Of a stretch of DNA of 32,537 nt, positions 1 to 12,195 are shown piece by piece (position 1 is the stretch's first letter; the number at the start of each line of letters is the position of its first letter). Made by a program: the position numbers and the translations under genes. The DNA is from a virus: the UHGV virus genome UHGV-0139594; one strand, written 5' to 3'. The notes under the pieces were generated by a model. That model was not told the origin of the DNA and made no database searches. It saw only the letters and a program-made list of their open reading frames with translations.

Positions 1-78
1 ACAAGGCCATTGACGCATCGCCCGGTTAGTTTTAACCTTGTCCACCGTGATTCACGTTCGTGAACATGTCCTTTCAGG

Positions 79-154
79 GCCGATATAGCTCAGTTGGTAG
101 AGCAGCGCATTCGTAATGCGAAGGTCGTAGGTTCGACTCCTATTATCGGCACCA
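79..154 (+). tRNA. thrW: tRNA-Thr (anticodon CGT), thrW-type; 76 nt with encoded CCA
   Basis: Sequence GCCGATATAGCTCAGTTGGTAGAGCAGCGCATTCGTAATGCGAAGGTCGTAGGTTCGACTCCTATTATCGGCACCA folds as a canonical cloverleaf (acceptor stem GCCGATA/TATCGGC, anticodon CGT at 112..114). Matches my recollection of enterobacterial thrW. Confidence 0.93.
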
Positions 155-168
155 TTAAAATCAATAAG

Positions 169-1332
169 TTACACATCATTAGTACCTTCCTTATTTTTTG
201 ACTGGGACAAATTTGGGACCGATGGGTTCAGGATCGAGTCTATTTGCCGTGCGTGTTCGGTAAGGTGATTAGGTGCAAGGTGAGCATATCGACGAACCAT
301 TTCGATAGACTCCCAGCCTCCCATTTCCTGTAACACTGACAACGGGACTCCGGCTTGAACCAGCCAACTTGCCCAGGTGTGTCTCAAGTCGTGAAATCTG
401 AAATCATCAATACCAGCCCGTCTCAGCGCCGCTTTCCAGGCTGTGTTTGCGTCATACCGCATCTTCCTTACTGTTGGCGCTTTCGTTCCGTCTGGTTTGG
501 TACAGCTTTCCTTGTACACAAATACCCAACGGTGATGATTCCCGATTTGTTTTTTCAATACGCGACATGCAGTATCATTCAGCGCAACGCCAATTGCGCG
601 GTTTGATTTACTCTCTTCCGGGTTTATCCATGCCACCCGGCGCTGCATATCTATTTGTTGCCATTCAAGGTTGATGATGTTCGAGCGTCTTAAGCCTGTT
701 GCCAGTGCAAATTCAACAACAGACTTTAATGGCTCCGGACATTCATCAATCAGCCTTTGTGCTTCATGGGGCTCCAGCCAGCGGATCCGTTTATTCTTTG
801 GTTGAGGCACTTTAATAATTGGTGCCTTATCCAGCATTTTCCATTCACGCTCTGCGGCTCTTAGTAGGGCCTTTATAAATGAAAGATGCGTAGCCTTCGT
901 TGCAACTGACGCTGGTTTTGGCGTGTATTCTGGAACAGGTTTCCCTTTTTTTCTGCATGCTTCTGCCCTGAGTTTCCAGTTTTCCTCATGACGCCGGTTC
1001 GTCATTTTCTGCATTGCTGAATAAATTTTTGATTCAGTAATGTCTCTTAGTTGCATTCCTGCGAAATGTTGAAGCCAGAATCCGATCCGGCTTTTGTCAT
1101 CGTCCAGCGATTTTTTATGTGCTTTCTCTTCAAGCCACCTGACACACGCTTCCTCGAACGTTATATCAGGTATTTCACCAAGTTTGCTGACCCGCCATGC
1201 TTCAGCCTTTAGCTTGTCATGGAGTTCTGTCGCCTGCCTTTTGTCCTTTGTTCCAAGAGACTGTTTAAATCTTTTACCGTTCGGCAATGTGAAACTGGCG
1301 TACCATATTTCACCTCTGCGGAAGAGTGACAT
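169..1332 (-). CDS. int: Tyrosine recombinase / phage integrase, P22 Int-like
   Basis: 387-aa ORF starting [14 protein letters not shown], with C-terminal catalytic region [15 protein letters not shown]...VRRYAHL (R-H-R-Y signature). Lies 15 bp from the tRNA 3' end and is transcribed toward it. Confidence 0.95.
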
Positions 1333-1559
1333 TTTCTTTCCTCTGTTATGCCATCACCCGCGCTCACCTGGACAGTATGCAGCGGAGACTGAAGAGCCGC
1401 AATGCAGGCTTGTCGTGTTGTGAGGTAAGGAGATTTATTCTTAGTGGGATCTTTGCGTGTTGCCTGAAGACGCCCTGTGCGTATCCAGTTAATGGCAGTC
1501 GGTCTGGATATCTTGAGAAAATGACAGGCCTCATCGAGTGTGAGGCTGTATGGCTCCAT
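1209..1559 (-). CDS. xis: Excisionase (Xis), P22-like
   Basis: Internal start [36 protein letters not shown] gives a 116-aa winged-helix excisionase-like protein. Its ATG overlaps the stop of the upstream gene (TAATG), and its 3' end overlaps int in another frame, as in lambdoid int-xis pairs. Confidence 0.75.
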
Positions 1560-1864
1560 TATTTCACCTCTTGTTGTGACATTGTTGAAAAATGGATACC
1601 TGCTCGTTGCTGCCAGACGATCCAACCGAGAGTCATATCCCATGCCATGTATTCGTTATCGCCGTTTTTTGCTCTCCGACGATCTACTAAGTCACCGAAA
1701 CGCTTTTCCATGAATAATTCATAAGCTTCGCGTTCATCTGGTTCTACTTCCAGAGATAGGAGTGCGATTTCATAAGCACGGCGCTCAATATCGTCTCGCA
1801 CGTCAAGGCTGCTGATACGCTCTTTAATTTCTTTAATCAGTTCTTTGTCGGTAAAAGTGGTCAT
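1559..1864 (-). CDS. Hypothetical early-left operon protein (acidic, 101 aa)
   Basis: ORF in translationally coupled chain (stop/start overlaps at both ends). No recognisable domain. Confidence 0.55.
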   Translation of the reverse strand: MTTFTDKELIKEIKERISSLDVRDDIERRAYEIALLSLEVEPDEREAYELFMEKRFGDLVDRRRAKNGDNEYMAWDMTLGWIVWQQRAGIHFSTMSQQEVK

Positions 1865-2226
1865 TATGCTCCAGCCTCCGGTGCTTTTGGCATTACTGCC
1901 CAGTGAGTGATATTGACGTTTTCAAGGTCCCCGACCTGAAATGTCCACTGCCATTCTCCGGTTTCTTTTTGTCCCCAGGTGTACCAGAGAGAACGCCAGC
2001 CAATTAGCCAGCCTTCTCCGTTAGCATCGAATAACAAAACACTTTCATTTGCTGGTGGCAGTTCAGTTGACACTGGTATTACTTTGTTTTCCTGTGCTGC
2101 ACATTTAGCTTCAAGCGCATCGAATTTACGCACCAGGTATTCAGCATCTGTTTCATTCACTTTCAGATCTCGCGGTACACATCTCCCACGAAGAAACCCT
2201 TCCATTTCGAAAACATTCATGCGCAT
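1864..2226 (-). CDS. Hypothetical early-left operon protein (Eaa-like, 120 aa)
   Basis: ORF coupled to downstream gene; position and size typical of lambdoid ea-region proteins. No firm domain call. Confidence 0.55.
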   Translation of the reverse strand: MRMNVFEMEGFLRGRCVPRDLKVNETDAEYLVRKFDALEAKCAAQENKVIPVSTELPPANESVLLFDANGEGWLIGWRSLWYTWGQKETGEWQWTFQVGDLENVNITHWAVMPKAPEAGA

Positions 2227-2780
2227 TTGCGTAACTCCGATAACTCGTTAAAACGTTCCATAAACATCCCGTAGGCATGGCCCGGTGCCTGTGGAATCAC
2301 TTTGAACATCTCTGTTGCCGGGATACCTTCCAGTACAGGCCAGAAAGAGCCATCATCAAGCCCGAGATCGCGGCGTTCGGTTGCCAGCATAATGAGATCG
2401 GCATATTTCACTGGCGTGCTCATAACAGGAGGTAACCCGTATTTCTCACGGATTACGGCGTCTATTTTTTCTTCCATCCGTTTATAGTCAGGAAGAAGTC
2501 GTTTCAGTGGTGCGGGGATGTCCTAGCAATATGCTTCTGTTGCATCATGCATTAAAGCTTCAAAAGCAAATTCCTGTGGCACCAGCTGGCTGCAAAGCAC
2601 CGCATGTTGGGCGACACTGTAGAAGTGTGAAAGATGTCCTGCAAAGCGACAGATATTTGAAAGGGAAACCGCGATATCGTTAATAACGATGTCGTCTTTA
2701 TTTATCCTGTCATAATAAAAATGCTTCCCGGAAAAAGTTTTAATAAATGACATTTTGTTCTCCACGTATATGCGCTGCAC
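2217..2780 (-). pseudogene. HD-domain phosphohydrolase (YfbR-like 5'-deoxynucleotidase family) interrupted by a single in-frame amber codon
   Basis: Track ORFs 2523..2780 and 2217..2477 are in the same frame, separated only by TAG at 2523..2525. Read-through translation gives ...LMHDATEAYC*DIPAPLKRLL..., reconstituting the HD...E...GDhPxPxK motif across the stop. Confidence 0.6.
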
Positions 2781-2789
2781 CGCGCTGAA

Positions 2790-3260
2790 TTCGGGTAAAA
2801 GGAAGCCCTCACCGTCCGGCGATTATTGAGTCAATTACATTTCCATAAATGCCCCCGTAGGGGCGGTTAGTTTCTCCACAAAACAGAGAAGAACACCTGC
2901 GGTGGCAGCCGCCCGGATGGATTGGGTTATGAGCCCGTCGTCCGGTGATGCTCTTCTCTGTTTTGTAAAAAGGACGGTACCAGCCGGAAGCAAGGGTACA
3001 AGCTGGTACCGCCAAGACTACACACAGCATAAAGTTGTGGTGCCGGGTGCCTCCCGGTGCCTGGCGAAGGTTGCACACCAGGCGGGTGGGTATCCACAGA
3101 AGGTCGACTGTCAGCCTCAACCTTAACCCGCGTGCGCTGAGCCGCATTCACCACAACGCTAAGGATTCTCTCTGGTTGAAAATACTTAGCTGTTATGTGC
3201 CTGTCTTTTCACCACTTCAGGCTCGGTGGTATCCTTTTAAGCCCGTATACATAAAAGGAA
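2790..3260. other. GC-rich, ORF-poor segment with nested inverted repeats; candidate structured RNA or degraded insert
   Basis: No convincing ORF; several overlapping junk ORFs in multiple frames. Long-range complementary segments: ACAAAACAGAGAAGA/TCTTCTCTGTTTTGT, GGTACCAGC/GCTGGTACC, GTTGTGGTG/CACCACAAC, CCCCGTAGGGG. Confidence 0.25.
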
Positions 3261-3266
3261 AATCAA

Positions 3267-3512
3267 ATGACTTTTGATGAAAAAGAACTTGATAATGCAA
3301 TTAATAAAATCATCGTAACGTCGCTCTTTTCCTGTCTCAGCGACACTCAGCAAAAACAGTTCTACGAATCGGCTTTCAACATGATCGAGCGTTGTTGTTT
3401 CTGCGATGCCGACGAGTTACCTGAAAAAATCAGGAAACAGTTGGCTGATGCTCTTCGAGTGCGACTTTCTGACCAATTTTCTGAAATGTACTCTCCGAAT
3501 TTGGACAAATAG
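3267..3512 (+). CDS. Hypothetical protein (81 aa)
   Basis: ORF with AAGGAA-type RBS upstream of ATG. Plus-strand gene inside an otherwise minus-strand early-left region. Confidence 0.45.
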   Translation: MTFDEKELDNAINKIIVTSLFSCLSDTQQKQFYESAFNMIERCCFCDADELPEKIRKQLADALRVRLSDQFSEMYSPNLDK

Positions 3513-3705
3513 AAAAAGGCCATTTCCATTCAGGGTCTGATGGAAAGACTTCAGCCTGTTCTAAAGCACGGCGTAAAGAGAACACAACTCCAGCCATAAT
3601 CTGATGTTTCCCATTGGTCCAGCTATCGCCGCTCTGATCTACAGGAGCGGCTATGTCGTATGACCAAACGACTTCACCACTATTGTTTAAAATCTGGACT
3701 TTCAT
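3430..3705 (-). CDS. Hypothetical protein (91 aa)
   Basis: ORF downstream of the zinc-finger gene in the leftward operon. Its 3' end overlaps the convergent 3267..3512 ORF, so true extent is uncertain. Confidence 0.35.
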   Translation of the reverse strand: MKVQILNNSGEVVWSYDIAAPVDQSGDSWTNGKHQIMAGVVFSLRRALEQAEVFPSDPEWKWPFSICPNSESTFQKIGQKVALEEHQPTVS

Positions 3706-3713
3706 TTTGTTCT

Positions 3714-3917
3714 TTAACCTCCAGATTTCCGCGCATCTAAAGGCGCATTCTCATTTGGTGTGAACTGAATAGTTGTGCTGATATTGATTAATGCCCCGAC
3801 ACACAAGACTACGCACTCAGAGCAGATAGCAACTTCATCTTTTCCGCCTTTGGCGATGATTTTTTTTGCCTGCAGCTCGTTTGCGCCACAAAACGAGCAT
3901 GTGAAATAACGGTTCAT
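3714..3917 (-). CDS. Small ClpX-type C4 zinc-finger protein (first gene of leftward early operon)
   Basis: MNRYFTCSFCGANELQAKKIIAKGGKDEVAICSECVVLC resembles the ClpX N-terminal zinc-binding domain (CxxC...CxxC). Start chosen at the second ATG, which has an AAGAGAG RBS. Confidence 0.55.
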   Translation of the reverse strand: MNRYFTCSFCGANELQAKKIIAKGGKDEVAICSECVVLCVGALINISTTIQFTPNENAPLDARKSGG

Positions 3918-4004
3918 TTGCGCTCTCTTACACATAGTATTTAACGAATCATCCGGTCATTCATACGCCACCGGCGGCTACTTCGTGGGCGTCCTGCCTG
4001 TTCG

Positions 4005-4080
4005 TTGTTTTAACACCTTTAAGTTGTAATTTAGTTGTGGTTTTGAATGTTGTCAACAACTTTATGTGGTTTGAACGAGT
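4005..4080. promoter_or_regulatory. OL-like operator/promoter region (divergent promoters)
   Basis: Contains motif blocks CACCTTTAAGTTGT, AGTTGT, ATGTTGT and ACAACTTTATGT that recur, rearranged, in the cI-cro intergenic region. Confidence 0.45.
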
Positions 4081-4119
4081 AGCCAAGGAGTGCAAGGATT
4101 ATCAAAAAAAGGAGGTTGT

Positions 4120-5010
4120 ATGGAAGACGCGCTTTACGCTTTTAATTACACACAGAACCGGGACAAGTTATTTGCTAACTTGATTAGCATCATTGATGGA
4201 ATCATTGCAGATGGAGTTGTCCGTGAAGAGGAGGTTCTTTACTTAGATACATGGTTACTTGAAGCAAAGCAGATTATCAATAATGGAGTTATAAAAAGTC
4301 TATCAGCACGGGTGTCGGATATTCTTGCGGATGGAATAATCACATCAGAAGAACGTGATGACCTTAAAAATAGCCTTCTCCAAATACAGAGGGAAATTCT
4401 TGATATCCCTGAAATTGATTTTTACTCCAAGGATGTAGATGTCCATTTACTTAATGGACTATGTAAAGGATTAATTGCTGATCGGAACTTAACTCAAGAA
4501 GAAATAAGATATCTTAATTGGTGGCTTGAGCAAAATGGAGCTTTGAAGAACAACTACCCAGGAAAAAAACTTTATGCACTTGTAAAGGAAATTCTTAAAG
4601 ATGGTGTTATTACTGAAGATGAGAGTTTAACTCTACATAAGGCATTAGTAGACTTCACAGGATGTGACTTGGAAAGTGGGGTGGTGGATGGTTTGGCGAC
4701 CAGGCTGCCTATTGATGTAGGGGCTTCGATAGAGTTAGAGGGTAAAACCTATTGTCTTACAGGCACTTTTGTTGCAGGAAAGAGAGCCGTAGTTGAAAAT
4801 TTGATTAAAAATGCTGGTGGGAACATCAGTAGTGGAATTACTCAAAAGTTGGATTTTTTAGTAATTGGGACGCTTTCCTCCCGTGATTGGAAATTCTCAA
4901 GTCACGGAAGGAAGATCGAAAAGGCTATATCTTATAGGGATGATAATGGTGCAAAACTTAAAATTATTTCTGAAGAAATGCTTTTCGATGCATTACCAAG
5001 TTCGCGATGA
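4120..5010 (+). CDS. Accessory protein with four tandem TerB-like (ADG...EE) helical repeats and a C-terminal BRCT domain
   Basis: GGAGG RBS 4 nt before ATG 4120. Repeats IADGVVREEEVLYLDTWLL, LADGIITSEERDDLKNSLL, IADRNLTQEEIRYLNWWLE, LKDGVITEDESLTLHKALV. C-terminus GKTYCLTGTF...GKRAVVENLIKNAGGNISSGITQKLDFLVIG resembles the LigA-type BRCT domain. Confidence 0.8.
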   Translation: MEDALYAFNYTQNRDKLFANLISIIDGIIADGVVREEEVLYLDTWLLEAKQIINNGVIKSLSARVSDILADGIITSEERDDLKNSLLQIQREILDIPEIDFYSKDVDVHLLNGLCKGLIADRNLTQEEIRYLNWWLEQNGALKNNYPGKKLYALVKEILKDGVITEDESLTLHKALVDFTGCDLESGVVDGLATRLPIDVGASIELEGKTYCLTGTFVAGKRAVVENLIKNAGGNISSGITQKLDFLVIGTLSSRDWKFSSHGRKIEKAISYRDDNGAKLKIISEEMLFDALPSSR

Positions 5011-5679
5011 CCAGAATACCCTACCTATAACATGAATTCTGGCTCGTCTATCTTCAAAGGTGAGTATTTCATCTGGGTACTCATCTTTGTTGAAGCTTCT
5101 AAGAATCAAGCCACCGTCAGGTAAGTTGATAAGTATTTTAACCCTTAGCAATACACCATCTCGTACGGCATAAAGATCGCCATCACGAATAGGAACGGTT
5201 TGAGAAATATCAACGGCAACAAGATCTCCATTATTGAGAACCGGTAATAAACTGTTCCCCCATATTTTTACGATCTTGGCATTAGATGCACATACGCCAG
5301 ATTTTCTCAAATCTGCTCTTCTTAATGGAAACCAGTCAATAGCTGATTCAACTATTTCAGCCAGACATCCGTTACCTGCCGATAACTCGACATCTAAAAC
5401 AGGAATGTTTACGAAAATATCGGGGTCTAATGCGGTGCTTTCTGCTTCTTTTACAACAAGATCAGGTATGGATGCGTTGTCTTCAATACCAAGTTGTAAC
5501 CACTTTTGTGATACACCTAAAACTTTTGCAATTTCTTTAATTTTGCGCGGTTGTAGAGTTTCGCCATTCTCTATTTTGGCTACAGATTGTTGTGAAAGTC
5601 CAATTTTTTCAGCTAGTTGAGCTTGGCTCATGCCAGCTTTCTCTCTACCTATCTTTAATCGTTCTGCCAGTGTTTTCAC
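4993..5679 (-). CDS. cI: CI-like prophage repressor (XRE-type HTH + S24 LexA-like peptidase domain)
   Basis: N-terminal HTH (MSQAQLAEKIGLSQQSVAKIENGE) and C-terminal S24 autopeptidase-like region. Divergent from the cro-like gene across an operator-rich intergenic region. Confidence 0.88.
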   Translation of the reverse strand: MKTLAERLKIGREKAGMSQAQLAEKIGLSQQSVAKIENGETLQPRKIKEIAKVLGVSQKWLQLGIEDNASIPDLVVKEAESTALDPDIFVNIPVLDVELSAGNGCLAEIVESAIDWFPLRRADLRKSGVCASNAKIVKIWGNSLLPVLNNGDLVAVDISQTVPIRDGDLYAVRDGVLLRVKILINLPDGGLILRSFNKDEYPDEILTFEDRRARIHVIGRVFWSSRTW

Positions 5680-5689
5680 AACATATCCC

Positions 5690-5805
5690 TCTCTTTTTTG
5701 ATGAGGTTACAACTTTATGTTTTAGCTTTCCAACACCTAAAAGTTGTGATAAAAGTTGTTAATGTTGTATTCTTGCAACTCGTAACAACTTAACTACCTA
5801 AAAAG
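5690..5805. promoter_or_regulatory. OR-like operator/promoter region between cI and cro
   Basis: Repeated half-site-like motifs ACAACTTTATGT, CACCTAAAAGTTGT, AAGTTGT, ATGTTGT, CAACTCGTAACAACTT. Confidence 0.5.
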
Positions 5806-5814
5806 GAGAAAGCT

Positions 5815-6063
5815 ATGACACCTGAGCAATTAGCCTTATCGGAGGCAATCGCTCTGGCTGGTGGTCAATCAGAATTGGCTCGGAAGCTCACAGCCAGCAG
5901 CGGTCATTTAGTAAAGCAACAACATGTCTGGAACTGGTTGAACAGAGAAAAGCGTCCCCCTGCAAAGCTCTCGATATTCATTGAAAAGACCACTGGCATA
6001 TCAAAAGAAAAATTACGTCCAGATATTTTTCAAAAGATTAAAGATTCATCAGATGAAAAGTAA
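5815..6063 (+). CDS. cro: Cro-like (YdaS-like) HTH regulator
   Basis: 82-aa ORF with AAGGAG RBS, divergent from the repressor; HTH-like segment and typical position. Confidence 0.75.
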   Translation: MTPEQLALSEAIALAGGQSELARKLTASSGHLVKQQHVWNWLNREKRPPAKLSIFIEKTTGISKEKLRPDIFQKIKDSSDEK

Positions 6064-6085
6064 CCACAGTTTTAAGGAGATAGCC

Positions 6086-6637
6086 GTGGGTAAGCATCAC
6101 TGGAAAGTAGAAAAACAGCCTAAGTGGTACGTGAAAGCTGTCAGAAAAACTATCGCGGCGTTGCCGGGTGGTTACGCTGAAGCTGCTGACTGGCTGGATG
6201 TAACAGAGAACGCATTATTTAACCGCCTTCGTGCCGATGGCGATCAGATTTTCCCGCTGGGATGGGCAATGGTTTTACAGCGCGCAGCTGGCACTCACTA
6301 CATTGCGGATGCTGTCGCACAGTCTGCTGGTGGGGTGTTCGTATCGCTTCCTGAAATTGAGGAAGTAGAGAACGCCGATATAAACCAGCGCCTGCTGGAA
6401 GTCATCGAACAGATCGGGAGTTACTCAAAGCAGATTCGTTCGGCAATCGAAGATGGGGTAGTGGAGCCACACGAGCAGACAGCAATTAACGACGAGCTGT
6501 ATCTCTCAATTTCGAAGCTGCAGGAGCATGCAGCACTGGTCTACAAAATCTTTTGCATTTCAGAAAGTAATGACGCCCGCGAGTGTGCAGCTCCGGGCGC
6601 CGTGGCGTGTCGTGACTGTGGAGAAACTAACGCATGA
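6086..6637 (+). CDS. CII-like regulatory protein (phage 186 CII / CP76 family-like)
   Basis: Directly after cro. GTG at 6086 has an AAGGAG RBS; ATG at 6053 is an alternative start. Family call is weak recollection only. Confidence 0.55.
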
Positions 6638-6992
6638 ACAGTTTAACAACACACTACCGTCGCTCGCAACTGATTGCGCTTCCTGTACCGGGTGGAAAAG
6701 CGAAGGTGGAGTATTGCTATGCAGTTAATGTACCTGGTGACAGGGAAATTGTAACCCACAGCTTTGCTGAGTGGGCTGTGGGTGATTTCAACCGGCAGAA
6801 GGAGACAGTCCTTTGCGACAAGTTAACCGCTGGTTCAAAGATCACTACGGAGTGCCCGTCAGAGTCATTCGTTGGGAGCCGGAAACACAACGAGTTATCT
6901 ACCTCCGCGAAGGCTATGAGCATGAGTGCTTCAGCCCGCTCGAACAGTTTCGTCGTAAATTCAGGGAAATAGAGGTCGGTCATGAGCACTAA
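6634..6992 (+). pseudogene. Hypothetical protein with apparent frameshift (two frames needed for a protein-like product)
   Basis: Frame of ORF 6634..6972 is protein-like to about residue 59, then turns into a Ser-rich tail. The -1 frame from about 6786 to its stop at 6990..6992 reads [61 protein letters not shown]-run at about 6811..6815 is the likely shift site. Confidence 0.5.
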
Positions 6993-7923
6993 ATTAACCG
7001 GCTATGTATGGGATGGTTGCGCTGCATCAGGCATGAAATTATCCAGCGTGGCAATTATGGCCCGCCTGGCTGATTTCAGTAATGACGAAGGTGTGTGCTG
7101 GCCATCAATTGAAACTATTGCCCGTCAGATTGGCGCGGGGATGAGTACCGTCAGGACGGCTATCGCACGGCTGGAAGCAGAAGGCTGGTTAACGCGTAAG
7201 GCGCGTCGCCAGGGTAACCGCAATGCGTCGAATGTTTATCAGCTTAACGTTGCGAAGCTTCAGGCAGCGGCATTTTCTCAACTGTCAGATTCTGACCCGT
7301 CAAAATCTGACGCATCAAAATCTGACCCGTCAAAATTTGATGCGTCGAAATCTGGCAAAAAAGCGGGTTTTCACCCGTCAGAATCTGGCGGGGATCCGTC
7401 AGTAAAATCAAAACATGATCCGTCAGATAAAAAACCTTCTCGTCCGGACGCTTCGCAACCGGACACGCAGACGGCTGAACAGGAGTTTTTAACTCGCCAT
7501 CCTGATGCGGTTGTATTCAGCCCTAAAAAGCGCCAGTGGGGAACGCAGGATGATTTGACCTGCGCACAGTGGCTCTGGAAAAAAATCATCGCCCTGTACG
7601 AGCAGGCCGCCGAATGTGACGGCGAGGTGGTTCGTCCCAAAGAACCGAACTGGACAGCCTGGGCAAACGAAATTCGCCTGATGTGTGTGCAGGATGGTCG
7701 TACTCACAAACAAATCTGCGAGATGTACAGCCGCGTCAGCCGCGATCCGTTCTGGTGCCGTAACGTGCTCAGCCCGTCGAAGTTGCGGGAAAAATGGGAT
7801 GAGCTTTCCCTGCGCTTATCACCGTCCGTCAGCACGTACACCGAAAAACGCGAAGACCCGTACTTCAAATCCAGTTACGACAACGTGGACTACAGCCAGA
7901 TCCCGGCAGGATTCAGGGGGTGA
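6982..7923 (+). CDS. Replication initiator / replisome organizer (lambda O-like role) with N-terminal wHTH
   Basis: N-terminus MARLADFSNDEGVCWPSIETIARQIGAGMSTVRTAIARLEAEGWL is a typical phage replication-protein wHTH; the gene contains an internal iteron array. Confidence 0.8.
   Translation: MSTKLTGYVWDGCAASGMKLSSVAIMARLADFSNDEGVCWPSIETIARQIGAGMSTVRTAIARLEAEGWLTRKARRQGNRNASNVYQLNVAKLQAAAFSQLSDSDPSKSDASKSDPSKFDASKSGKKAGFHPSESGGDPSVKSKHDPSDKKPSRPDASQPDTQTAEQEFLTRHPDAVVFSPKKRQWGTQDDLTCAQWLWKKIIALYEQAAECDGEVVRPKEPNWTAWANEIRLMCVQDGRTHKQICEMYSRVSRDPFWCRNVLSPSKLREKWDELSLRLSPSVSTYTEKREDPYFKSSYDNVDYSQIPAGFRG
7283..7402. repeat. Iteron array (putative ori) inside the replication initiator gene
   Basis: Tandem 15-bp units ACCCGTCAAAATCTG / ACGCATCAAAATCTG / ACCCGTCAAAATTTG / ATGCGTCGAAATCTG / ACCCGTCAGAATCTG plus degenerate copies, followed by an A-rich stretch. 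Encodes the SDSDPSKSDASKSDPSK low-complexity linker. Confidence 0.7.
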
Positions 7924-8414
7924 TCATGAGTCTTTTGAATGACGTTCAGAAATTCATTGAAGCCCATCCGGGGTGTACTTCCGGAGACATTGCGGATGCT
8001 TTTGCAGGTTACTCACGGCAGCGCGTTCTGCAGTCAGCAAGCAAGTTACGTCAGAGTGGGCGTGTGGCTCACCGTTGTGAAGGGGATACACGCAGACATT
8101 TCCCGCGCCAGACAAAGATATCGCAGGAGGCGGAACCGCAACCAGTTCGTGAAACCAGACCTGTGCGCAATTTCTATGTCGGCACTAACGATCCCCGGGT
8201 GATTTTGTGCCTGACCCGCCAGGCGGAAGAACTGGAGTCGAGGGGCTTATACCGTCGTGCTGCAACCGTGTGGATGGCGGCATTCCGTGAAAGCCACTCC
8301 CAGCCAGAGCGAAACAATTTTCTTGCGCGTCGTGAGCGGTGTTTACGGAAAAGCAGCAAGCGCGCTGTACCGGGTGATGAGTGGTATCTGTCAGGGAATT
8401 ACGTGGGGGCTTAA
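7920..8414 (+). CDS. Hypothetical protein with PerC-like C-terminal region
   Basis: ATGA start/stop overlap with the rep gene. AEELESRGLYRRAATVWMAAF resembles the PerC-family signature (recollection only). Confidence 0.45.
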   Translation: MIMSLLNDVQKFIEAHPGCTSGDIADAFAGYSRQRVLQSASKLRQSGRVAHRCEGDTRRHFPRQTKISQEAEPQPVRETRPVRNFYVGTNDPRVILCLTRQAEELESRGLYRRAATVWMAAFRESHSQPERNNFLARRERCLRKSSKRAVPGDEWYLSGNYVGA

Positions 8415-9067
8415 TGAGTAATAAATATTGCCAGGCGCTGGTCGAACTGCGGAACAAACCAGCCCATGAACTGAAGGAAGTGGGCGATCAGTGGCGCACG
8501 CCGGATAACATTTTCTGGGGAATTAACACCCTGTTTGGCCCGTTTGTTCTGGATCTGTTCACTGACGGTGATAACGCCAAATGTGCCGCGTATTACACGG
8601 CGGAAGACAACGCGCTGGCGCATGACTGGTCAGAACGTCTTGCGGAGCTTAAAGGTGCTGCCTTTGGTAATCCCCCATACAGCCGCGCCAGTCAGCATGA
8701 GGGGCAATACATCACCGGCATGCGTTACATCATGAAGCATGCCAGTGCCATGCGTGATAAAGGCGGGCGCTATGTTTTCCTGATCAAAGCTGCCACCAGC
8801 GAAGTGTGGTGGCCGGAAGATGCAGATCATATTGCTTTTATTCGCGGGCGTATTGGTTTTGAACTGCCTGTCTGGTTTATCCCGAAAGACGAGAAGCAGG
8901 TACCGACAGGCGCTTTCTTCGCTGGTGCTATTGCTGTTTTCGACAAGACCTGGAAGGGACCGGCAATCAGCTACATCGGGCGCGATGAACTTGAGGCATG
9001 TGGTGAGGCCTTTCTGGCGCAGGTTCGCCAGCAGGCGGAAAAACTGGTCAGGGAGATGGCGGCATGA
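8414..9067 (+). CDS. Phage Dam-type N6-adenine DNA methyltransferase
   Basis: NPPY motif (GNPPYS); start ATG overlaps the upstream stop (TAATG). Confidence 0.75.
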   Translation: MSNKYCQALVELRNKPAHELKEVGDQWRTPDNIFWGINTLFGPFVLDLFTDGDNAKCAAYYTAEDNALAHDWSERLAELKGAAFGNPPYSRASQHEGQYITGMRYIMKHASAMRDKGGRYVFLIKAATSEVWWPEDADHIAFIRGRIGFELPVWFIPKDEKQVPTGAFFAGAIAVFDKTWKGPAISYIGRDELEACGEAFLAQVRQQAEKLVREMAA

Positions 9068-9390
9068 CGACGTTAACTCAATGCCAGCAGCAGGTGCTGG
9101 ATATGCTGATTTCTTACCAGAAAGAACGTGGCTTCCCGCCAACCAATCAGGAGGTGGCAACCATGCTGGGATACCGTTCGGTGAATGCAGCGGTGGAGCA
9201 TCTTCGCGCACTGGAGAAAAAAGGCGTCATCACGATAAAGCGTGGCGTGGCCCGGGGGATAACGCTTCATACCGCGGTGAAGGACGACGACAGTGAGGCG
9301 GTCGGGATTATCCGCGCACTGCTTGCCGGTGAGGAAAACGCCAGGCTGCGTGCAGCCCACTGGTTACATGAGAGGGGCCTGAAAGTATGA
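9064..9390 (+). CDS. Orphan LexA-like DNA-binding domain protein (no S24 peptidase domain)
   Basis: LTQCQQQVLDMLISYQKERGFPPTNQEVATMLGYRSVNAAVEHLRALEKKGVITIKRGVARGITL aligns closely with the LexA N-terminal wHTH ([65 protein letters not shown]). Protein is only 108 aa. Confidence 0.7.
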   Translation: MTTLTQCQQQVLDMLISYQKERGFPPTNQEVATMLGYRSVNAAVEHLRALEKKGVITIKRGVARGITLHTAVKDDDSEAVGIIRALLAGEENARLRAAHWLHERGLKV

Positions 9391-9776
9391 AGCTGATCTT
9401 GCCTTTCCCGCCCAGCGTGAACACGTATTGGCGACACCCCAACAAAGGGGCATTTGCAGGTAAGAGCCTGATAAGCGCGGCGGGGCGAAAATTTCAGAGC
9501 GCGGCGTGCGCAGCAATAGTTGAACAGTTACGTCGTCTGCCGAAACCAACGTCGGCACCTGCTTCAGTGGAGATCGTGTTGTTTCCTCCGGATAACAGGA
9601 TCCGCGATCTGGACAACTATAACAAGGCGCTGTTTGACGTTCTGACCCACGCGGGTGTGTGGGAAGACGACAGCCAGGTGAAAAGAATGCTGGTGGAGTG
9701 GGGACCGGTTATCCCGGGAGGGAAGGTCGAGATCACTATCAGTAAGTACGAGAAAACGGCGGGTGCAGCCGCCTGA
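9387..9776 (+). CDS. rusA: RusA-family Holliday junction resolvase
   Basis: LPFPPSVNTYWRH ... DLDNYNKALFDVLTHAGVWEDDSQV matches RusA motifs; typical Nin-region position. Confidence 0.85.
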   Translation: MKLILPFPPSVNTYWRHPNKGAFAGKSLISAAGRKFQSAACAAIVEQLRRLPKPTSAPASVEIVLFPPDNRIRDLDNYNKALFDVLTHAGVWEDDSQVKRMLVEWGPVIPGGKVEITISKYEKTAGAAA

Positions 9777-9795
9777 TTAAGAGGAGAAACGAAGT

Positions 9796-10605
9796 ATGAA
9801 TAATCTGATGGTCATTGATGGTATTGAAGTTCGTCGTGATGCTTATGGGCGTTACAGCCTGAACGATCTGCATCGCGCAGCAGTAGCATCTGGTGCAAAT
9901 GCCAGAACCAAGGAGCCAGGAAAGTTTCTTTCCAGCCAACAAACTGTTGAACTTGTTCATGAATTGACCAACACCCAGAATTTGGGTGTTGACCCGGTGA
10001 GTGTGATTCATGGGGGAAATGAACGGGGAACTTATGTCTGCAAGGAACTGGTGTATGCCTATACAATGTGGATCAGCCCGTCATTCCATCTGAAGGTGAT
10101 CCGTACTTTCGACATGGTAACCAGCGCACCGGAAAAATTATCCGGACAGGCTGCTGACAAGATGCAGGCTGGTGTGATTCTGCTGGACTTTATGCGCCGG
10201 GAATTAAACCTGTCTAACTCTTCAGTGCTTGGTGCCTGTCAGAAACTCCAGGAGGCTGTTGGCTTACCGAATCTGGCACCGCGCTATGCCATTGATGCTC
10301 CTGCTGACGCGCCTGATGGTTCAAGCCGCCCCACGCTGTCACTGAGTGCACTGCTGAAGCAGTATGGTATCCACCTGACAGCTAATCAGGCATATCACCA
10401 GATGGTGAAGCTGGGGATCGTCGAGCAGCGCGAACGATACAGCCGTACCGCGATTAACAACATCAAAAAATTCTGGTCGCTGACAGCGAAAGGCTGCATG
10501 TTCGGCAAGAACATCACCAGTCCCGCAAATCCGCGCGAGACGCAGCCGCATTTCTTCGAATCCCGATTCCCTGAGCTGTTAAAGCTGCTCGATACCGTTC
10601 ATTGA
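9796..10605 (+). CDS. KilA-N domain protein (antirepressor-like)
   Basis: N-terminal MVIDGIEVRRDAYGRYSLNDLHRAA is KilA-N-like. Confidence 0.7.
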   Translation: MNNLMVIDGIEVRRDAYGRYSLNDLHRAAVASGANARTKEPGKFLSSQQTVELVHELTNTQNLGVDPVSVIHGGNERGTYVCKELVYAYTMWISPSFHLKVIRTFDMVTSAPEKLSGQAADKMQAGVILLDFMRRELNLSNSSVLGACQKLQEAVGLPNLAPRYAIDAPADAPDGSSRPTLSLSALLKQYGIHLTANQAYHQMVKLGIVEQRERYSRTAINNIKKFWSLTAKGCMFGKNITSPANPRETQPHFFESRFPELLKLLDTVH

Positions 10606-10606
10606 G

Positions 10607-11602
10607 GTGACCGTGAGAGCACTACTGACCCCTGAAATTGCCCCGCGTATGGGGATCGTATTGTTCAGGCCAGGTTCAGAGCTGATGCCCCTGTTTATGC
10701 AGGGGCGTGTCCTGCTGGAGCCTGAGCCGGAACGTTATTCATCTTTCGCCAGTGGTGCCGTTCCCGCGGCATCACAACCGCTGGCGGATGATCCTGCTGT
10801 TCGGGCCGTGTTCCGCAATGAGGCAGTGATCCGTCGTGCTGGTGGCGTGGAATGTCTTGAAAGCTGGTTACTTCGTGAAAAAGGCTGCCAGTGGCCTCAT
10901 TCCGACTGGCACAGCGAGAACATGACCACAATGCGACACGCTCCTGGCGCAATCCGTCTGTGCTGGCACTGCGATAACCAGCTGCGTGATCAGTTCACGG
11001 AACGGCTGGAATCAATGGCAACGGATAACTGTGCCCGCTGGGTGTTGTCTGTCGTGCGTCGGGATCTCGGTTTTGATGACAGTCACGTTGTGACAATGCC
11101 GGAACTGTGCTGGTGGCTGGTTCGTAATGACCTGGCGGATGCCTTACCGGAAAGTGCAGCCTGTAAGGCACTGAGATTACCAAAGCCTGTTGTGCCGTCT
11201 GTCACCCGGGAAAGTGACCTTGTGCCTTCGGTTCCTGCCACCAGCATCATCCAGGATAAGGCGAAAAAGGTGCTGGCGCTGAAAGTGGATCCGGAGTCGC
11301 CGGAGTCTTTTATGTTACGCCCAAAACGTCGCCGCTGGGTTAATGAAAAGTACACGCGCTGGGTTAAGACACAGCCGTGTGCATGTTGTGGAAAGCCCGC
11401 TGATGATCCCCACCACCTGATAGGCCACGGTCAGGGGGGAATAGGTACAAAAGCGCATGACCTTTTTGTGTTGCCTTTGTGCAGAAAGCATCACGACGAG
11501 CTGCACGCGGATACCGTGGCATTTGAAGAGAAGTATGGCTTTCAACTGGAGCTGATGTTTCGTTTTATCGATCGTGCGCTGGCAACAGGCGTACTGGCGT
11601 AA
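10607..11602 (+). CDS. DUF968-family protein (YdfU-like)
   Basis: C-terminal CACCGKPADDPHHLIGHGQGGIGTKAHDLFVLPLCRKHHDELH Cys/His cluster typical of DUF968. Start codon uncertain (GTG). Confidence 0.65.
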   Translation: MTVRALLTPEIAPRMGIVLFRPGSELMPLFMQGRVLLEPEPERYSSFASGAVPAASQPLADDPAVRAVFRNEAVIRRAGGVECLESWLLREKGCQWPHSDWHSENMTTMRHAPGAIRLCWHCDNQLRDQFTERLESMATDNCARWVLSVVRRDLGFDDSHVVTMPELCWWLVRNDLADALPESAACKALRLPKPVVPSVTRESDLVPSVPATSIIQDKAKKVLALKVDPESPESFMLRPKRRRWVNEKYTRWVKTQPCACCGKPADDPHHLIGHGQGGIGTKAHDLFVLPLCRKHHDELHADTVAFEEKYGFQLELMFRFIDRALATGVLA

Positions 11603-11616
11603 GTGGAGAACTCTAA

Positions 11617-12195
11617 ATGATTAATCCTTCTGAAATTGGCAAAACGGGTGAAATGGTTCGTCTTCGTACTCTGGAAAGTATCTGGGTTCAGGGTAAGCTC
11701 CGCATGTGGGGACGCTGGTCTTATATCGGCGGTGGTAGTGGTGGGAACATGTTTAACCAGCTACTGGCATCTGGAAAAATTACCAAAACGGCAATTAAAG
11801 AAGCGCTACGCCGGATGAAAAAAGCGGGTATCAGCAAACCAGAGCTGGAAGCGTTTTTCAAAGAGATTCAGGAAGGGCAGAATAAAAGCGGTCTGGCGTT
11901 CTGTACCGATGAGGAAGCGCTGACCATCAACGCTGTACTCAGCGATGTCCTTGTGCAGTCAGGACATAAGAATTTATACGCTCTTATTGAAGATCGTTAT
12001 ATCAAACGCCTTAGCAAAAAGGCAATGGCAAGAGACCTAAATAAAAAGCATCCTGAATGGTGTTTGCGAACCTGTGAAAGCCGGATTGATGTTTGGCTAA
12101 ATGTAGCAGAATCGATGCTATACAAGCCAATGTGTGATGCATTTGGCACAAATGGCGACAGATTCCGCTTGAATAGTTGCGCGGAAAGTGCTTGA
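11617..12195 (+). CDS. Putative late-gene antiterminator (Q-like) by position
   Basis: Last gene before a strong intrinsic terminator and the lysis cassette; no confident family assignment. Confidence 0.45.
   Translation: MINPSEIGKTGEMVRLRTLESIWVQGKLRMWGRWSYIGGGSGGNMFNQLLASGKITKTAIKEALRRMKKAGISKPELEAFFKEIQEGQNKSGLAFCTDEEALTINAVLSDVLVQSGHKNLYALIEDRYIKRLSKKAMARDLNKKHPEWCLRTCESRIDVWLNVAESMLYKPMCDAFGTNGDRFRLNSCAESA

What the first reader, a model, noticed from the sequence alone, without database searches (positions are those of the whole stretch)
9064..9390. Orphan LexA DNA-binding domain encoded in the Nin-like region
The 108-aa protein aligns very closely with the N-terminal wHTH of LexA but has no S24 autopeptidase domain. 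Such a protein would be non-cleavable by RecA. If it binds SOS boxes it could act as an SOS-insensitive repressor or, as heterodimers, as a dominant-negative modulator of host LexA. Either would couple or uncouple prophage behaviour from host DNA damage. I found no obvious CTGT-N8-ACAG box in the window, so any target is probably elsewhere.
Basis: partly seen in the sequence, partly recalled or inferred. Interest (0 to 1): 0.55.

Follow-up and report, generated by a model that had tools for sequence, protein, structure and literature searches.

The report
Phage LexA-like DNA-binding protein without protease
A common E. coli prophage gene encodes the DNA-binding head of the SOS repressor LexA joined to a small helical tail in place of the self-cleaving domain; it is a real, already annotated but unstudied regulator that DNA damage probably cannot switch off and that probably no longer reads the classical SOS box.

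Summary
Window 9064-9390 (+) encodes a 108-aa protein. Residues 1-68 are a LexA winged helix-turn-helix (Pfam PF01726 E=2.9e-19; model 0.9 A from LexA on DNA). There is no S24 peptidase domain.

- Heterodimers with host LexA are unlikely, because LexA dimerises through the domain this protein lacks.
- Binding to canonical SOS boxes is doubtful. The DNA-contact residue Glu44 is replaced in all 157 family members examined, and positions 44/45 are hypervariable while the scaffold is invariant.
- No SOS box occurs in the window.

The gene is not new. It is identical to RefSeq WP_000210154.1 ("LexA family transcriptional regulator"), belongs to PHROG 362, occurs in 2233 of 5426 complete E. coli genomes, and is found in phages mEp460, SfV, cdtI and Stx2 phages. 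It sits in a translationally coupled Dam-LexA-like-RusA block of the early-right operon.

The only characterised analogue I found is GIL01 gp6, a truncated LexA homologue that binds its own palindrome and activates late genes.

Best reading: a RecA-insensitive, dimeric, LexA-derived regulator with altered operator specificity, made during lytic growth. Its target is unknown. Interest is moderate.

The parts
9064..9390 (+). Gene for the 108-aa LexA-like DNA-binding protein (identical at DNA level to the gene for RefSeq WP_000210154.1, 'LexA family transcriptional regulator')
   Evidence: ORF list; Pfam PF01726 E=2.9e-19; PHROG 362 E=1.6e-59, full length; 100% nucleotide identity to E. coli ECCHD184 locus D3W51_RS18520
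9064..9267 (+). Residues 1-68: winged helix-turn-helix of LexA type (helices 6-22, 28-35 and 40-52; strands 56-58 and 66-68)
   Evidence: AlphaFold models, pLDDT about 88-90; Foldseek hit to 3jso_B, rmsd 0.9 A over 67 columns
9178..9219 (+). Residues 39-52: recognition helix SVNAAVEHLRALEK. Ser39, Asn41, Ala42 and Glu45 are as in LexA; Glu44 is Val and Pro40 is Val
   Evidence: Alignments to LexA; contact residues from PMC3091678; family variation
9274..9285 (+). Residues 71-74: flexible linker (pLDDT below 50 in both models)
   Evidence: low-confidence segments 72-75 and 71-73; length varies in the family
9286..9369 (+). Residues 75-102: conserved helix-turn-helix hairpin (helices 75-88 and 93-102). 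It has no counterpart in LexA and is the inferred dimerisation or partner-binding module
   Evidence: AlphaFold pLDDT about 88-90; Ala97 and Leu101 invariant and Ala93 nearly invariant across 54 members down to 40% identity
9050..9067 (+). Ribosome-binding site AGGGAGA (9050-9056), then an ATG (9064) that overlaps the TGA stop of the upstream Dam gene (9065-9067): translational coupling, with no promoter of its own
   Evidence: Sequence; no promoter-like site upstream of the gene
9387..9390 (+). ATGA overlap: the stop of the LexA-like gene (9388-9390) overlaps the start of RusA (9387-9389)
   Evidence: Sequence; the same 4-nt overlap with RusA occurs in Salmonella- and Citrobacter-type homologues at 50-58% identity

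Best explanation
The gene encodes a small transcription-factor-like protein descended from a gammaproteobacterial LexA.

Shown: it keeps the LexA winged-helix DNA-binding fold.

Shown: it has lost the hinge cleavage site and the S24 protease/dimerisation domain. Inferred from that: neither RecA* nor DNA damage can inactivate it.

Shown: it has gained a conserved C-terminal helical hairpin on a flexible linker. Inferred: the hairpin supplies dimerisation, so that two heads can bind a palindromic operator as LexA does.

Inferred from gene overlaps and position: it is translated from the early-right (pR, nin-region) polycistronic message together with Dam and RusA. That makes it a lytic-phase protein, not the lysogenic immunity repressor.

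Inferred: the base-reading positions of the recognition helix (44, 45, also 28 and 40) have diverged from LexA and differ between subfamilies. Its operator is therefore probably LexA-like in geometry but not the canonical CTGT-N8-ACAG box.

Inferred: the 3.8-kb module that carries the gene moves between phages with unrelated immunity and late regions and contains almost no non-coding DNA. The operator is therefore most likely outside the module, plausibly on the host chromosome, and the protein acts in trans. The sign of regulation (repression or activation) is not known.
For: Fold and homology. Absence of S24 and sub-threshold lexA equivalog score.

Hairpin: predicted twice with pLDDT about 90, separated from the head by a low-confidence linker, pTM 0.57-0.58. 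It is conserved to 40% identity.

Cleavage site: the 'AGE' that aligns with LexA's Ala84-Gly85 site is not conserved in distant members and lies in the predicted inter-helix turn.

Operon position: the start overlaps the Dam stop and the stop overlaps the RusA start. There is no promoter-like site upstream. Homologues in Salmonella, Citrobacter, Cronobacter and Klebsiella prophages are likewise found between replication genes and Q. A separate CI-type HTH+S24 repressor lies at 4993-5679.

Specificity: Glu44 is absent in 157 of 157 tail-bearing members but present in most S24-bearing LexAs retrieved. In 15 representatives below 80% identity, Ser39, Asn41, Arg64, Gly65 and Ile66 are invariant, while positions 28, 40, 44 and 45 have 2.2-2.9 bits of entropy. 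Changes in LexA helix 3 are known to change operator specificity (PMC4951493).

Precedent: GIL01 gp6, a truncated LexA homologue, binds its own palindrome rather than the LexA box (PMC6182141).

Module mobility: window ~7848-11611 is shared at about 96-97% identity by phages that differ on both sides.

Purifying selection.
Against: No DNA target was identified, so altered specificity is an inference from residue variation alone.

The E. coli-type protein still has four of LexA's five helix-3 contact residues and the wing Arg64-Gly65, so it may still bind SOS boxes.

Dimerisation through the hairpin is untested. The hairpin could instead bind another protein.

Expression only during lytic growth is inferred from gene order. 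A weak internal promoter active in lysogens is not excluded.

Variability at positions 44/45 could reflect relaxed constraint rather than diversified specificity.
Confidence: 0.45

Rival explanations
1. RecA-proof SOS-box mimic. The protein binds canonical host SOS boxes as a dimer. Because it cannot be cleaved, it re-represses all or part of the SOS regulon once the prophage is induced. That would shut off, for example, LexA-controlled antirepressors of rival prophages, colicins, SOS toxins or mutagenic polymerases. This is essentially the first reader's 'SOS-insensitive repressor'.
For: 43% identity to E. coli LexA over 90 residues and 51% in the structural alignment of the domain. Ser39, Asn41, Ala42, Glu45 and the wing Arg64-Gly65-Ile66 are retained. 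The LexA N-terminal domain alone retains some ability to bind SOS boxes and repress (PMC10584840). There is no operator-like non-coding DNA in the mobile module, which points to a host target. In Klebsiella prophages the homologue lies about 600 nt downstream of a perfect SOS box and promoter, in the same gene string as phage dinI, whose product binds RecA filaments and helps regulate the SOS response (PMC9926225, abstract).
Against: Glu44 is never retained (0 of 157). Position 45 is E, D, L, G, T or I across subfamilies whose hosts are all Enterobacteriaceae. A mimic of an invariant host site should keep the host's reading residues. The Klebsiella homologue has Leu44-Leu45. The characterised phage analogue, gp6, does not bind the LexA box.
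Confidence: 0.28
2. gp6-like activator or repressor of a phage promoter. The protein binds a phage-borne palindrome and times expression of phage genes, as GIL01 gp6 does at the late promoter P3.
For: Direct precedent for a truncated phage LexA homologue (PMC6182141). Early-operon position. Variable reading residues would fit operators that co-evolve with each phage lineage.
Against: Lambdoid late transcription is driven by Q antitermination, and a Q-family gene follows the module. The module recombines with different Q and late regions. No repeated or SOS-like palindrome stands out in the window. Loci encoding the identical Salmonella-type protein carry different nearby palindromes.
Confidence: 0.12
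3. Non-transcriptional DNA-binding accessory. The winged helix tethers a neighbouring DNA-metabolism enzyme (RusA resolvase, Dam, or the DUF968 HNH protein) to DNA, and the hairpin is the docking element.
For: A 4-nt overlap with RusA is conserved across subfamilies at 50-58% identity while the upstream gene varies. DUF968 is always nearby. One database protein appears to fuse the LexA domain with RusA (P0285).
Against: RusA is separated from the gene by an inserted gene in Cronobacter and is absent from the Klebsiella context. The fusion proteins are single database entries, consistent with frameshift errors at the ATGA overlaps. Gene overlap is common in phage operons.
Confidence: 0.08
4. 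Dominant-negative partner of host LexA, acting through mixed dimers.
For: None beyond the shared N-terminal domain.
Against: LexA dimerises through its C-terminal domain (PMC3091678). That domain is absent here, and the hairpin shows no convincing similarity to it.
Confidence: 0.02

Closest known systems
GIL01 gp6 (Bacillus thuringiensis tectivirus), a phage-encoded truncated LexA homologue (Fornelos et al. 2018, PMC6182141)
   Same: Encoded by a temperate phage. Consists essentially of the LexA winged-helix domain without the S24 domain. Made from an early operon. Derived from the host's LexA lineage (gp6 is 44% identical to B. thuringiensis LexA; this protein is 43% identical to E. coli LexA over 90 residues).
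   Different: gp6 has no C-terminal helical hairpin. It belongs to a Firmicute lineage, and no tblastn similarity was found at E<1e-3. Its operator (GaCACAn nTGTGaC at the -35 of P3) and its activator role are demonstrated, whereas nothing has been tested for this protein. The lambdoid phage already has Q for late gene control.
E. coli LexA repressor (TIGR00498; PDB 1lea, 3jso)
   Same: Same DNA-binding fold (rmsd 0.9 A). Same Ser39, Asn41, Ala42, Glu45, His46, Leu47 and wing Arg64-Gly65-Ile66.
   Different: No S24 domain, no catalytic Ser119 or Lys156, no conserved Ala84-Gly85 site and no C-terminal dimer interface. Glu44 is Val. No SOS box at its own gene. Phage-borne, and part of a lytic operon.
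LexA(1-84) N-terminal cleavage fragment
   Same: An isolated LexA head that retains some ability to bind SOS boxes and repress (PMC10584840).
   Different: The fragment is removed by ClpXP (PMC10584840). This protein has a different, structured C-terminus ending in ...GLKV, so its stability is unknown.
PHROG 362 / RefSeq 'LexA family transcriptional regulator' (mEp460 'LexA DNA binding domain protein', SfV orf42, cdtI phage, Stx2a/Stx2c phages; probably pham 237 of PMC8136144)
   Same: This is that family: the full-length profile match has E=1.6e-59, and the nucleotide sequence is 96-100% identical.
   Different: Nothing differs. These are annotation labels only, and I found no experimental study of the family.

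Membership tests
Canonical LexA repressor (NCBIfam TIGR00498) | N-terminal LexA-type winged helix-turn-helix | tested here: met
   PF01726 E=2.9e-19, full profile; Foldseek 3jso_B rmsd 0.9 A
Canonical LexA repressor (NCBIfam TIGR00498) | C-terminal S24 peptidase/dimerisation domain with catalytic Ser and Lys | tested here: not met
   The protein ends at residue 108. There is no Peptidase_S24 hit. The lexA equivalog scores 70.5 against a cut-off of 110.95, matching profile positions 1-91 only
Canonical LexA repressor (NCBIfam TIGR00498) | Ala-Gly self-cleavage site in the hinge | tested here: not met
   An 'AGE' at residues 88-90 aligns with LexA's AAGE. However, it lies in a predicted inter-helix turn and is replaced in relatives by, for example, RES, RKE, DQP and EEP
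Canonical LexA repressor (NCBIfam TIGR00498) | Helix-3 base-contact residues Ser39, Asn41, Ala42, Glu44 and Glu45 | tested here: not met
   Four of five are kept and Glu44 is Val. Glu44 is absent in 157 of 157 family members
Canonical LexA repressor (NCBIfam TIGR00498) | Binds CTGT-N8-ACAG and autoregulates through an SOS box at its own promoter | tested here: not met
   The autoregulation part is not met: there is no SOS box anywhere in the window and the gene has no promoter of its own. Actual DNA binding cannot be tested with these tools
Pfam PF01726 LexA_DNA_bind / PHROG 362 | Profile match above the curated threshold over the full domain or family length | tested here: met
   69 bits against a cut-off of 23.7; PHROG 362 residues 1-108 against profile positions 1-106, E=1.6e-59
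Phage-encoded truncated LexA homologues (type: GIL01 gp6) | Temperate-phage gene encoding a LexA DNA-binding domain without the S24 domain | tested here: met
   description of gp6 in PMC6182141
Phage-encoded truncated LexA homologues (type: GIL01 gp6) | Binds a phage palindrome distinct from the LexA box and activates the late promoter | not testable with these tools
   No candidate site was found in the window. Late control here is expected from the Q-family gene at 11617-12195
Phage-encoded truncated LexA homologues (type: GIL01 gp6) | Sequence relationship to gp6 itself | tested here: not met
   tblastn against 50,697 phage records at E<1e-3 returns 63 records. No Bacillus phage or tectivirus is named. 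The resemblance is one of kind, not of common phage ancestry
Lambdoid immunity repressor (CI-like) | Divergently transcribed from cro, with HTH plus S24, and maintains lysogeny | tested here: not met
   That role is filled by the gene at 4993-5679 (-), which has HTH_3 and Peptidase_S24. The LexA-like gene lies 3.4 kb downstream in the rightward operon

The most novel reading that the evidence does not exclude
Roughly 40% of E. coli genomes, and many Salmonella, Klebsiella, Citrobacter and Cronobacter prophages, carry a RecA-proof LexA mimic. Once a prophage is induced, this protein would re-occupy SOS (or SOS-like) operators through a new hairpin-mediated dimer. That would impose a phage-controlled shut-off or re-wiring of the host DNA-damage response. 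Possible effects include silencing LexA-controlled antirepressors of competing prophages, SOS toxins, colicins and error-prone polymerases. The variable residues 44/45 would select different subsets of operators in different phage lineages.
Probability: 0.25. Interest if true: 0.75.

Novelty: new member of a known kind. Interest (0 to 1): 0.4.

Why it matters
If the protein binds SOS or SOS-like operators, very common prophages would carry a damage-insensitive override of the SOS response. That response controls mutagenesis, persistence, colicin release, induction of other prophages and Shiga-toxin phage behaviour; the same gene sits in Stx2a and Stx2c phages.

Even if its targets are different, it is a second, independent case, after GIL01 gp6, of a phage capturing the host LexA head and re-purposing it. 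Here the captured head comes with a new dimerisation-like module, which makes it a tidy system for studying how repressor specificity evolves after domain capture.

It is also a warning about annotation. Labels such as 'SOS-response repressor and protease LexA' or 'RecA-mediated autopeptidases', attached to this gene in some phage records, are wrong, because the protein has no protease domain.

Tried and rejected
1. SOS box in the window. The exact pattern is absent. One-mismatch hits number 15 against 10.3 expected. A 20-mer weight matrix built from E. coli SOS boxes recalled from memory gives a best score of 10.8, below the shuffled mean maximum of 11.8. Rejected.

2. Vestigial cleavage site. 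'LLAGEE' aligns with LexA's 'VAAGEP'. It is not conserved in distant members and lies in a helix-turn. Rejected as a functional cleavage site.

3. Phage-borne operator. All perfect inverted repeats with arms of 7 nt or more and a spacer of 12 nt or less were listed for the window and nine related loci. None is repeated, SOS-like or promoter-associated near the gene. About 1.6 nine-nt-arm palindromes are expected by chance in 32.5 kb. Loci encoding the identical Salmonella-type protein carry different palindromes, so those do not track the protein.

4. A 'natural experiment' with full-length LexAs that have Val44. The only S24-bearing hit with Val44 (P0213) also has Thr45, so it is not informative.

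5. Defence-system membership. PADLOC gives only a marginal CARF-model hit (E=3.6e-4) to the HTH region. Rejected.

6. A profile-based locus scan with the diverse alignment failed because no conserved 7-10-column stretch was available. I used the look-up of encoding contigs instead.

7. Primary papers on LexA-DNA contacts (Zhang 2010) and on ClpXP degradation of the LexA fragment (Neher 2003) are not held in the library. I relied on secondary statements in PMC3091678, PMC4951493 and PMC10584840.

8. Ten literature searches found no experimental paper on this enterobacterial family.

Full report
**1. What is there**

The window is the left part of a lambdoid prophage. Reading rightward, it contains:
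- tRNA-Thr at 79-154, followed by the integrase gene.
- A CI-type repressor with HTH_3 and Peptidase_S24 at 4993-5679 (-), and a cro-like gene at 5815-6063.
- A replication gene at 6982-7923.
- A run of overlapping rightward genes: PerC/YfdN (7920-8414), Dam (to 9067), the gene in question (9064-9390), RusA (9387-9776), KilA-N (9796-10605), DUF968/HNH (10607-11602) and a Q-family antiterminator (11617-12195).

Window 1-11611 is 99.5% identical to a prophage beside proA/tRNA-Thr in E. coli ECCHD184. In that genome the gene is annotated WP_000210154.1, 'LexA family transcriptional regulator'.

**2.

The 108-aa product matches the entire Pfam LexA_DNA_bind model (E=2.9e-19). It also matches the E. 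coli LexA DNA-binding domain in the PDB (E=6.5e-16) and is 43% identical to LexA over 90 residues.

Two AlphaFold runs, with 23 and 54 sequences, gave mean pLDDT of 84. Both show the LexA head: three helices and a two-stranded wing over residues 1-68.

There is no S24 domain, and the lexA equivalog model scores below its cut-off. The gene is under purifying selection: non-synonymous differences are 0.26-0.38 per site, while synonymous sites are near saturation (0.64-0.72) against homologues of 50-58% identity.

**3.

Residues 75-102 form a confidently predicted helix-turn-helix hairpin (pLDDT about 90). A low-confidence linker joins it to the head, and pTM is 0.57-0.58, as expected for two independently placed modules.

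The hairpin is conserved in every full-length relative down to 40% identity. Ala97 and Leu101 are invariant and Ala93 is nearly invariant. A 28-residue hairpin cannot bury its own hydrophobic stripes, so I infer that it pairs with a second copy or with a partner protein. The simplest role is to replace the dimerisation that LexA gets from its C-terminal domain. This is inference and was not tested.

The 'AGE' that aligns with LexA's cleavage site is the inter-helix turn and is not conserved in distant members. It is therefore not a cleavage site.

**4. How common and how well known it is**

The gene occurs at 95% or higher nucleotide identity in 2233 of 5426 complete E. coli genomes. It is also found in phages mEp460, SfV (orf42), SfII, SfIV, cdtI, 1720a-02 and many Stx2a/Stx2c phages.

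It belongs to PHROG 362, labelled 'transcriptional repressor'. It is probably the pfam01726 'pham 237' listed for Stx phages in PMC8136144.

Relatives with the same head-plus-hairpin architecture occur in prophages of Salmonella, Citrobacter, Cronobacter, Klebsiella, Enterobacter and Atlantibacter. Structure search shows many other phage proteins that consist of a LexA head alone.

Ten full-text literature searches found no experimental work on this enterobacterial family. They did find the one characterised analogue, GIL01 gp6. It is a truncated LexA homologue that binds its own palindrome at the late promoter and activates it, while host LexA represses the same promoter (PMC6182141).

**5. 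Context and expression**

The start codon overlaps the Dam stop (ATGA) and is preceded by AGGGAGA. The stop overlaps the RusA start (ATGA). No promoter-like site precedes the gene. I therefore infer that it is translated from the pR early-right transcript during lytic growth, and that it is not the immunity repressor.

In homologues at 50-58% identity the upstream gene varies: a different methylase family, an 800-aa methylase fusion, or the replication gene. The 4-nt overlap with RusA persists. In Cronobacter an inserted gene separates the two. In Klebsiella RusA is absent.

The block from about 7848 to 11611 (PerC to DUF968) is shared at about 96-97% identity by phages whose immunity/replication regions and Q/late regions differ. 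The block has almost no non-coding DNA.

**6. Does it read the SOS box?**

LexA's helix-3 DNA contacts are Ser39, Asn41, Ala42, Glu44 and Glu45 (PMC3091678). This protein has Ser, Asn, Ala, Val and Glu at those positions.

Among 157 hairpin-bearing relatives, position 44 is V, A, N, T, L, F or Y and never Glu. Most S24-bearing LexAs retrieved in the same search have Glu there.

In 15 representatives below 80% identity, Ser39, Asn41, Arg64, Gly65 and Ile66 are invariant. Positions 28, 40, 44 and 45 are the most variable, at 2.2-2.9 bits.

All hosts are Enterobacteriaceae. From general knowledge (not tested here), their LexA and SOS box are the same. A protein selected to mimic LexA at that box should have kept LexA's reading residues. 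Changes in LexA helix 3 are the established route to new operator motifs (PMC4951493), and gp6 shows that this happens in phages.

I therefore rank 'LexA-like geometry, altered specificity' (0.45) above 'canonical SOS-box mimic' (0.28).

The mimic is not excluded:
- The E. coli type keeps four of the five contact residues.
- The isolated LexA head can still repress (PMC10584840).
- The module has no room for an operator of its own.
- In Klebsiella prophages the homologue lies downstream of a perfect SOS box (TACTGTTTATTTATACAGTA) that overlaps a promoter, in one gene string with phage dinI.

**7. Rejected parts of the first interpretation**

Mixed dimers with host LexA would need the C-terminal domain, which is absent. 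The phage's coupling to DNA damage is already provided by its CI-type S24 repressor.

**8. Verdict**

This is a real gene, correctly recognised as a LexA head without a protease. It is already annotated and very common, and its function is untested. It is a new member of a known kind (phage-encoded truncated LexA homologues). Its distinguishing feature is a conserved helical hairpin that has apparently not been described.

Interest is moderate (0.4). The most novel reading still open is a damage-proof override of the SOS regulon carried by about 40% of E. coli genomes. I give it a probability of about 0.25. It would be of high interest if true.

Noticed in passing
window 9969-9991; L004 5891-5908; L005 5886-5907; L014 4961-4982: A perfect 9+5+9 palindrome, CAACACCCA-GAATT-TGGGTGTTG, lies about 173 nt into the KilA-N gene. 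Related loci carry different perfect palindromes at nearly the same offset (161-166 nt) in their KilA-N genes. This looks like a conserved hairpin or binding site with changing sequence. It does not track the LexA-like protein, because loci with the identical protein have different palindromes.
   Followed up: partly
L009-L012, 3385-3404 (Klebsiella prophages): A perfect SOS box, TACTGTTTATTTATACAGTA, overlaps a TTGAAC-17-TATACT promoter just upstream of a phage dinI. The string continues with a small ORF, the 130-aa LexA-like homologue (helix 3 SSNAVLLH), a 67-aa ORF and DUF968. This looks like an SOS-controlled operon that pairs DinI with a LexA head.
   Followed up: partly
proteins P0153, P0154, P0168, P0171, P0172, P0174, P0177, P0181-P0184, P0188, P0209, P0235, P0239: Many database proteins of 140-350 aa contain two tandem LexA DNA-binding domains in one chain and no S24 domain. 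They may be 'single-chain dimers' of the LexA head.
   Followed up: no
window 7920-8414: A PerC-family gene (YfdN-like, PF06069) lies two genes upstream in the same co-inherited module, which would make it another putative trans-acting regulator carried with the LexA-like gene.
   Followed up: no
window 4090-5010 (+): A 306-aa protein with a C-terminal BRCT domain (PF00533, E=1.4e-6) is encoded next to the CI-type repressor gene, and the 3' ends of the two convergent genes overlap. It has a weak match to PADLOC candidate model PDC-S48.
   Followed up: no
window 8792-8813; L013 3208-3233: An inverted repeat, GCCACCAGCGAAGTGTGGTGGC, lies inside the Dam gene and recurs in the Cronobacter Dam gene. 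It coincides with the peptide ATSEVWWP, so it may simply follow from codon choice.
   Followed up: partly
proteins P0023, P0092, P0098, P0120, P0141, P0291 (Dam+LexA domains) and P0285 (LexA+RusA domains): Single-entry database proteins appear to fuse the LexA-like domain to its upstream or downstream neighbour. These are most likely frameshifts at the ATGA overlaps rather than true fusions.
   Followed up: no
phage records (e.g. KF030445.1, LR595868.1, AB285204.1): Several deposited annotations call this gene 'SOS-response repressor and protease LexA' or 'RecA-mediated autopeptidases', although the protein has no protease domain.
   Followed up: yes
L009 2930-2946 and 3124-3141: Two similar palindromes, CAGATAT-CTC-ATATCTG and CAGATGT-AACA-ACATCTG, lie in the divergent intergenic region upstream of the Klebsiella dinI operon. 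They may be operators for an unidentified regulator.
   Followed up: no
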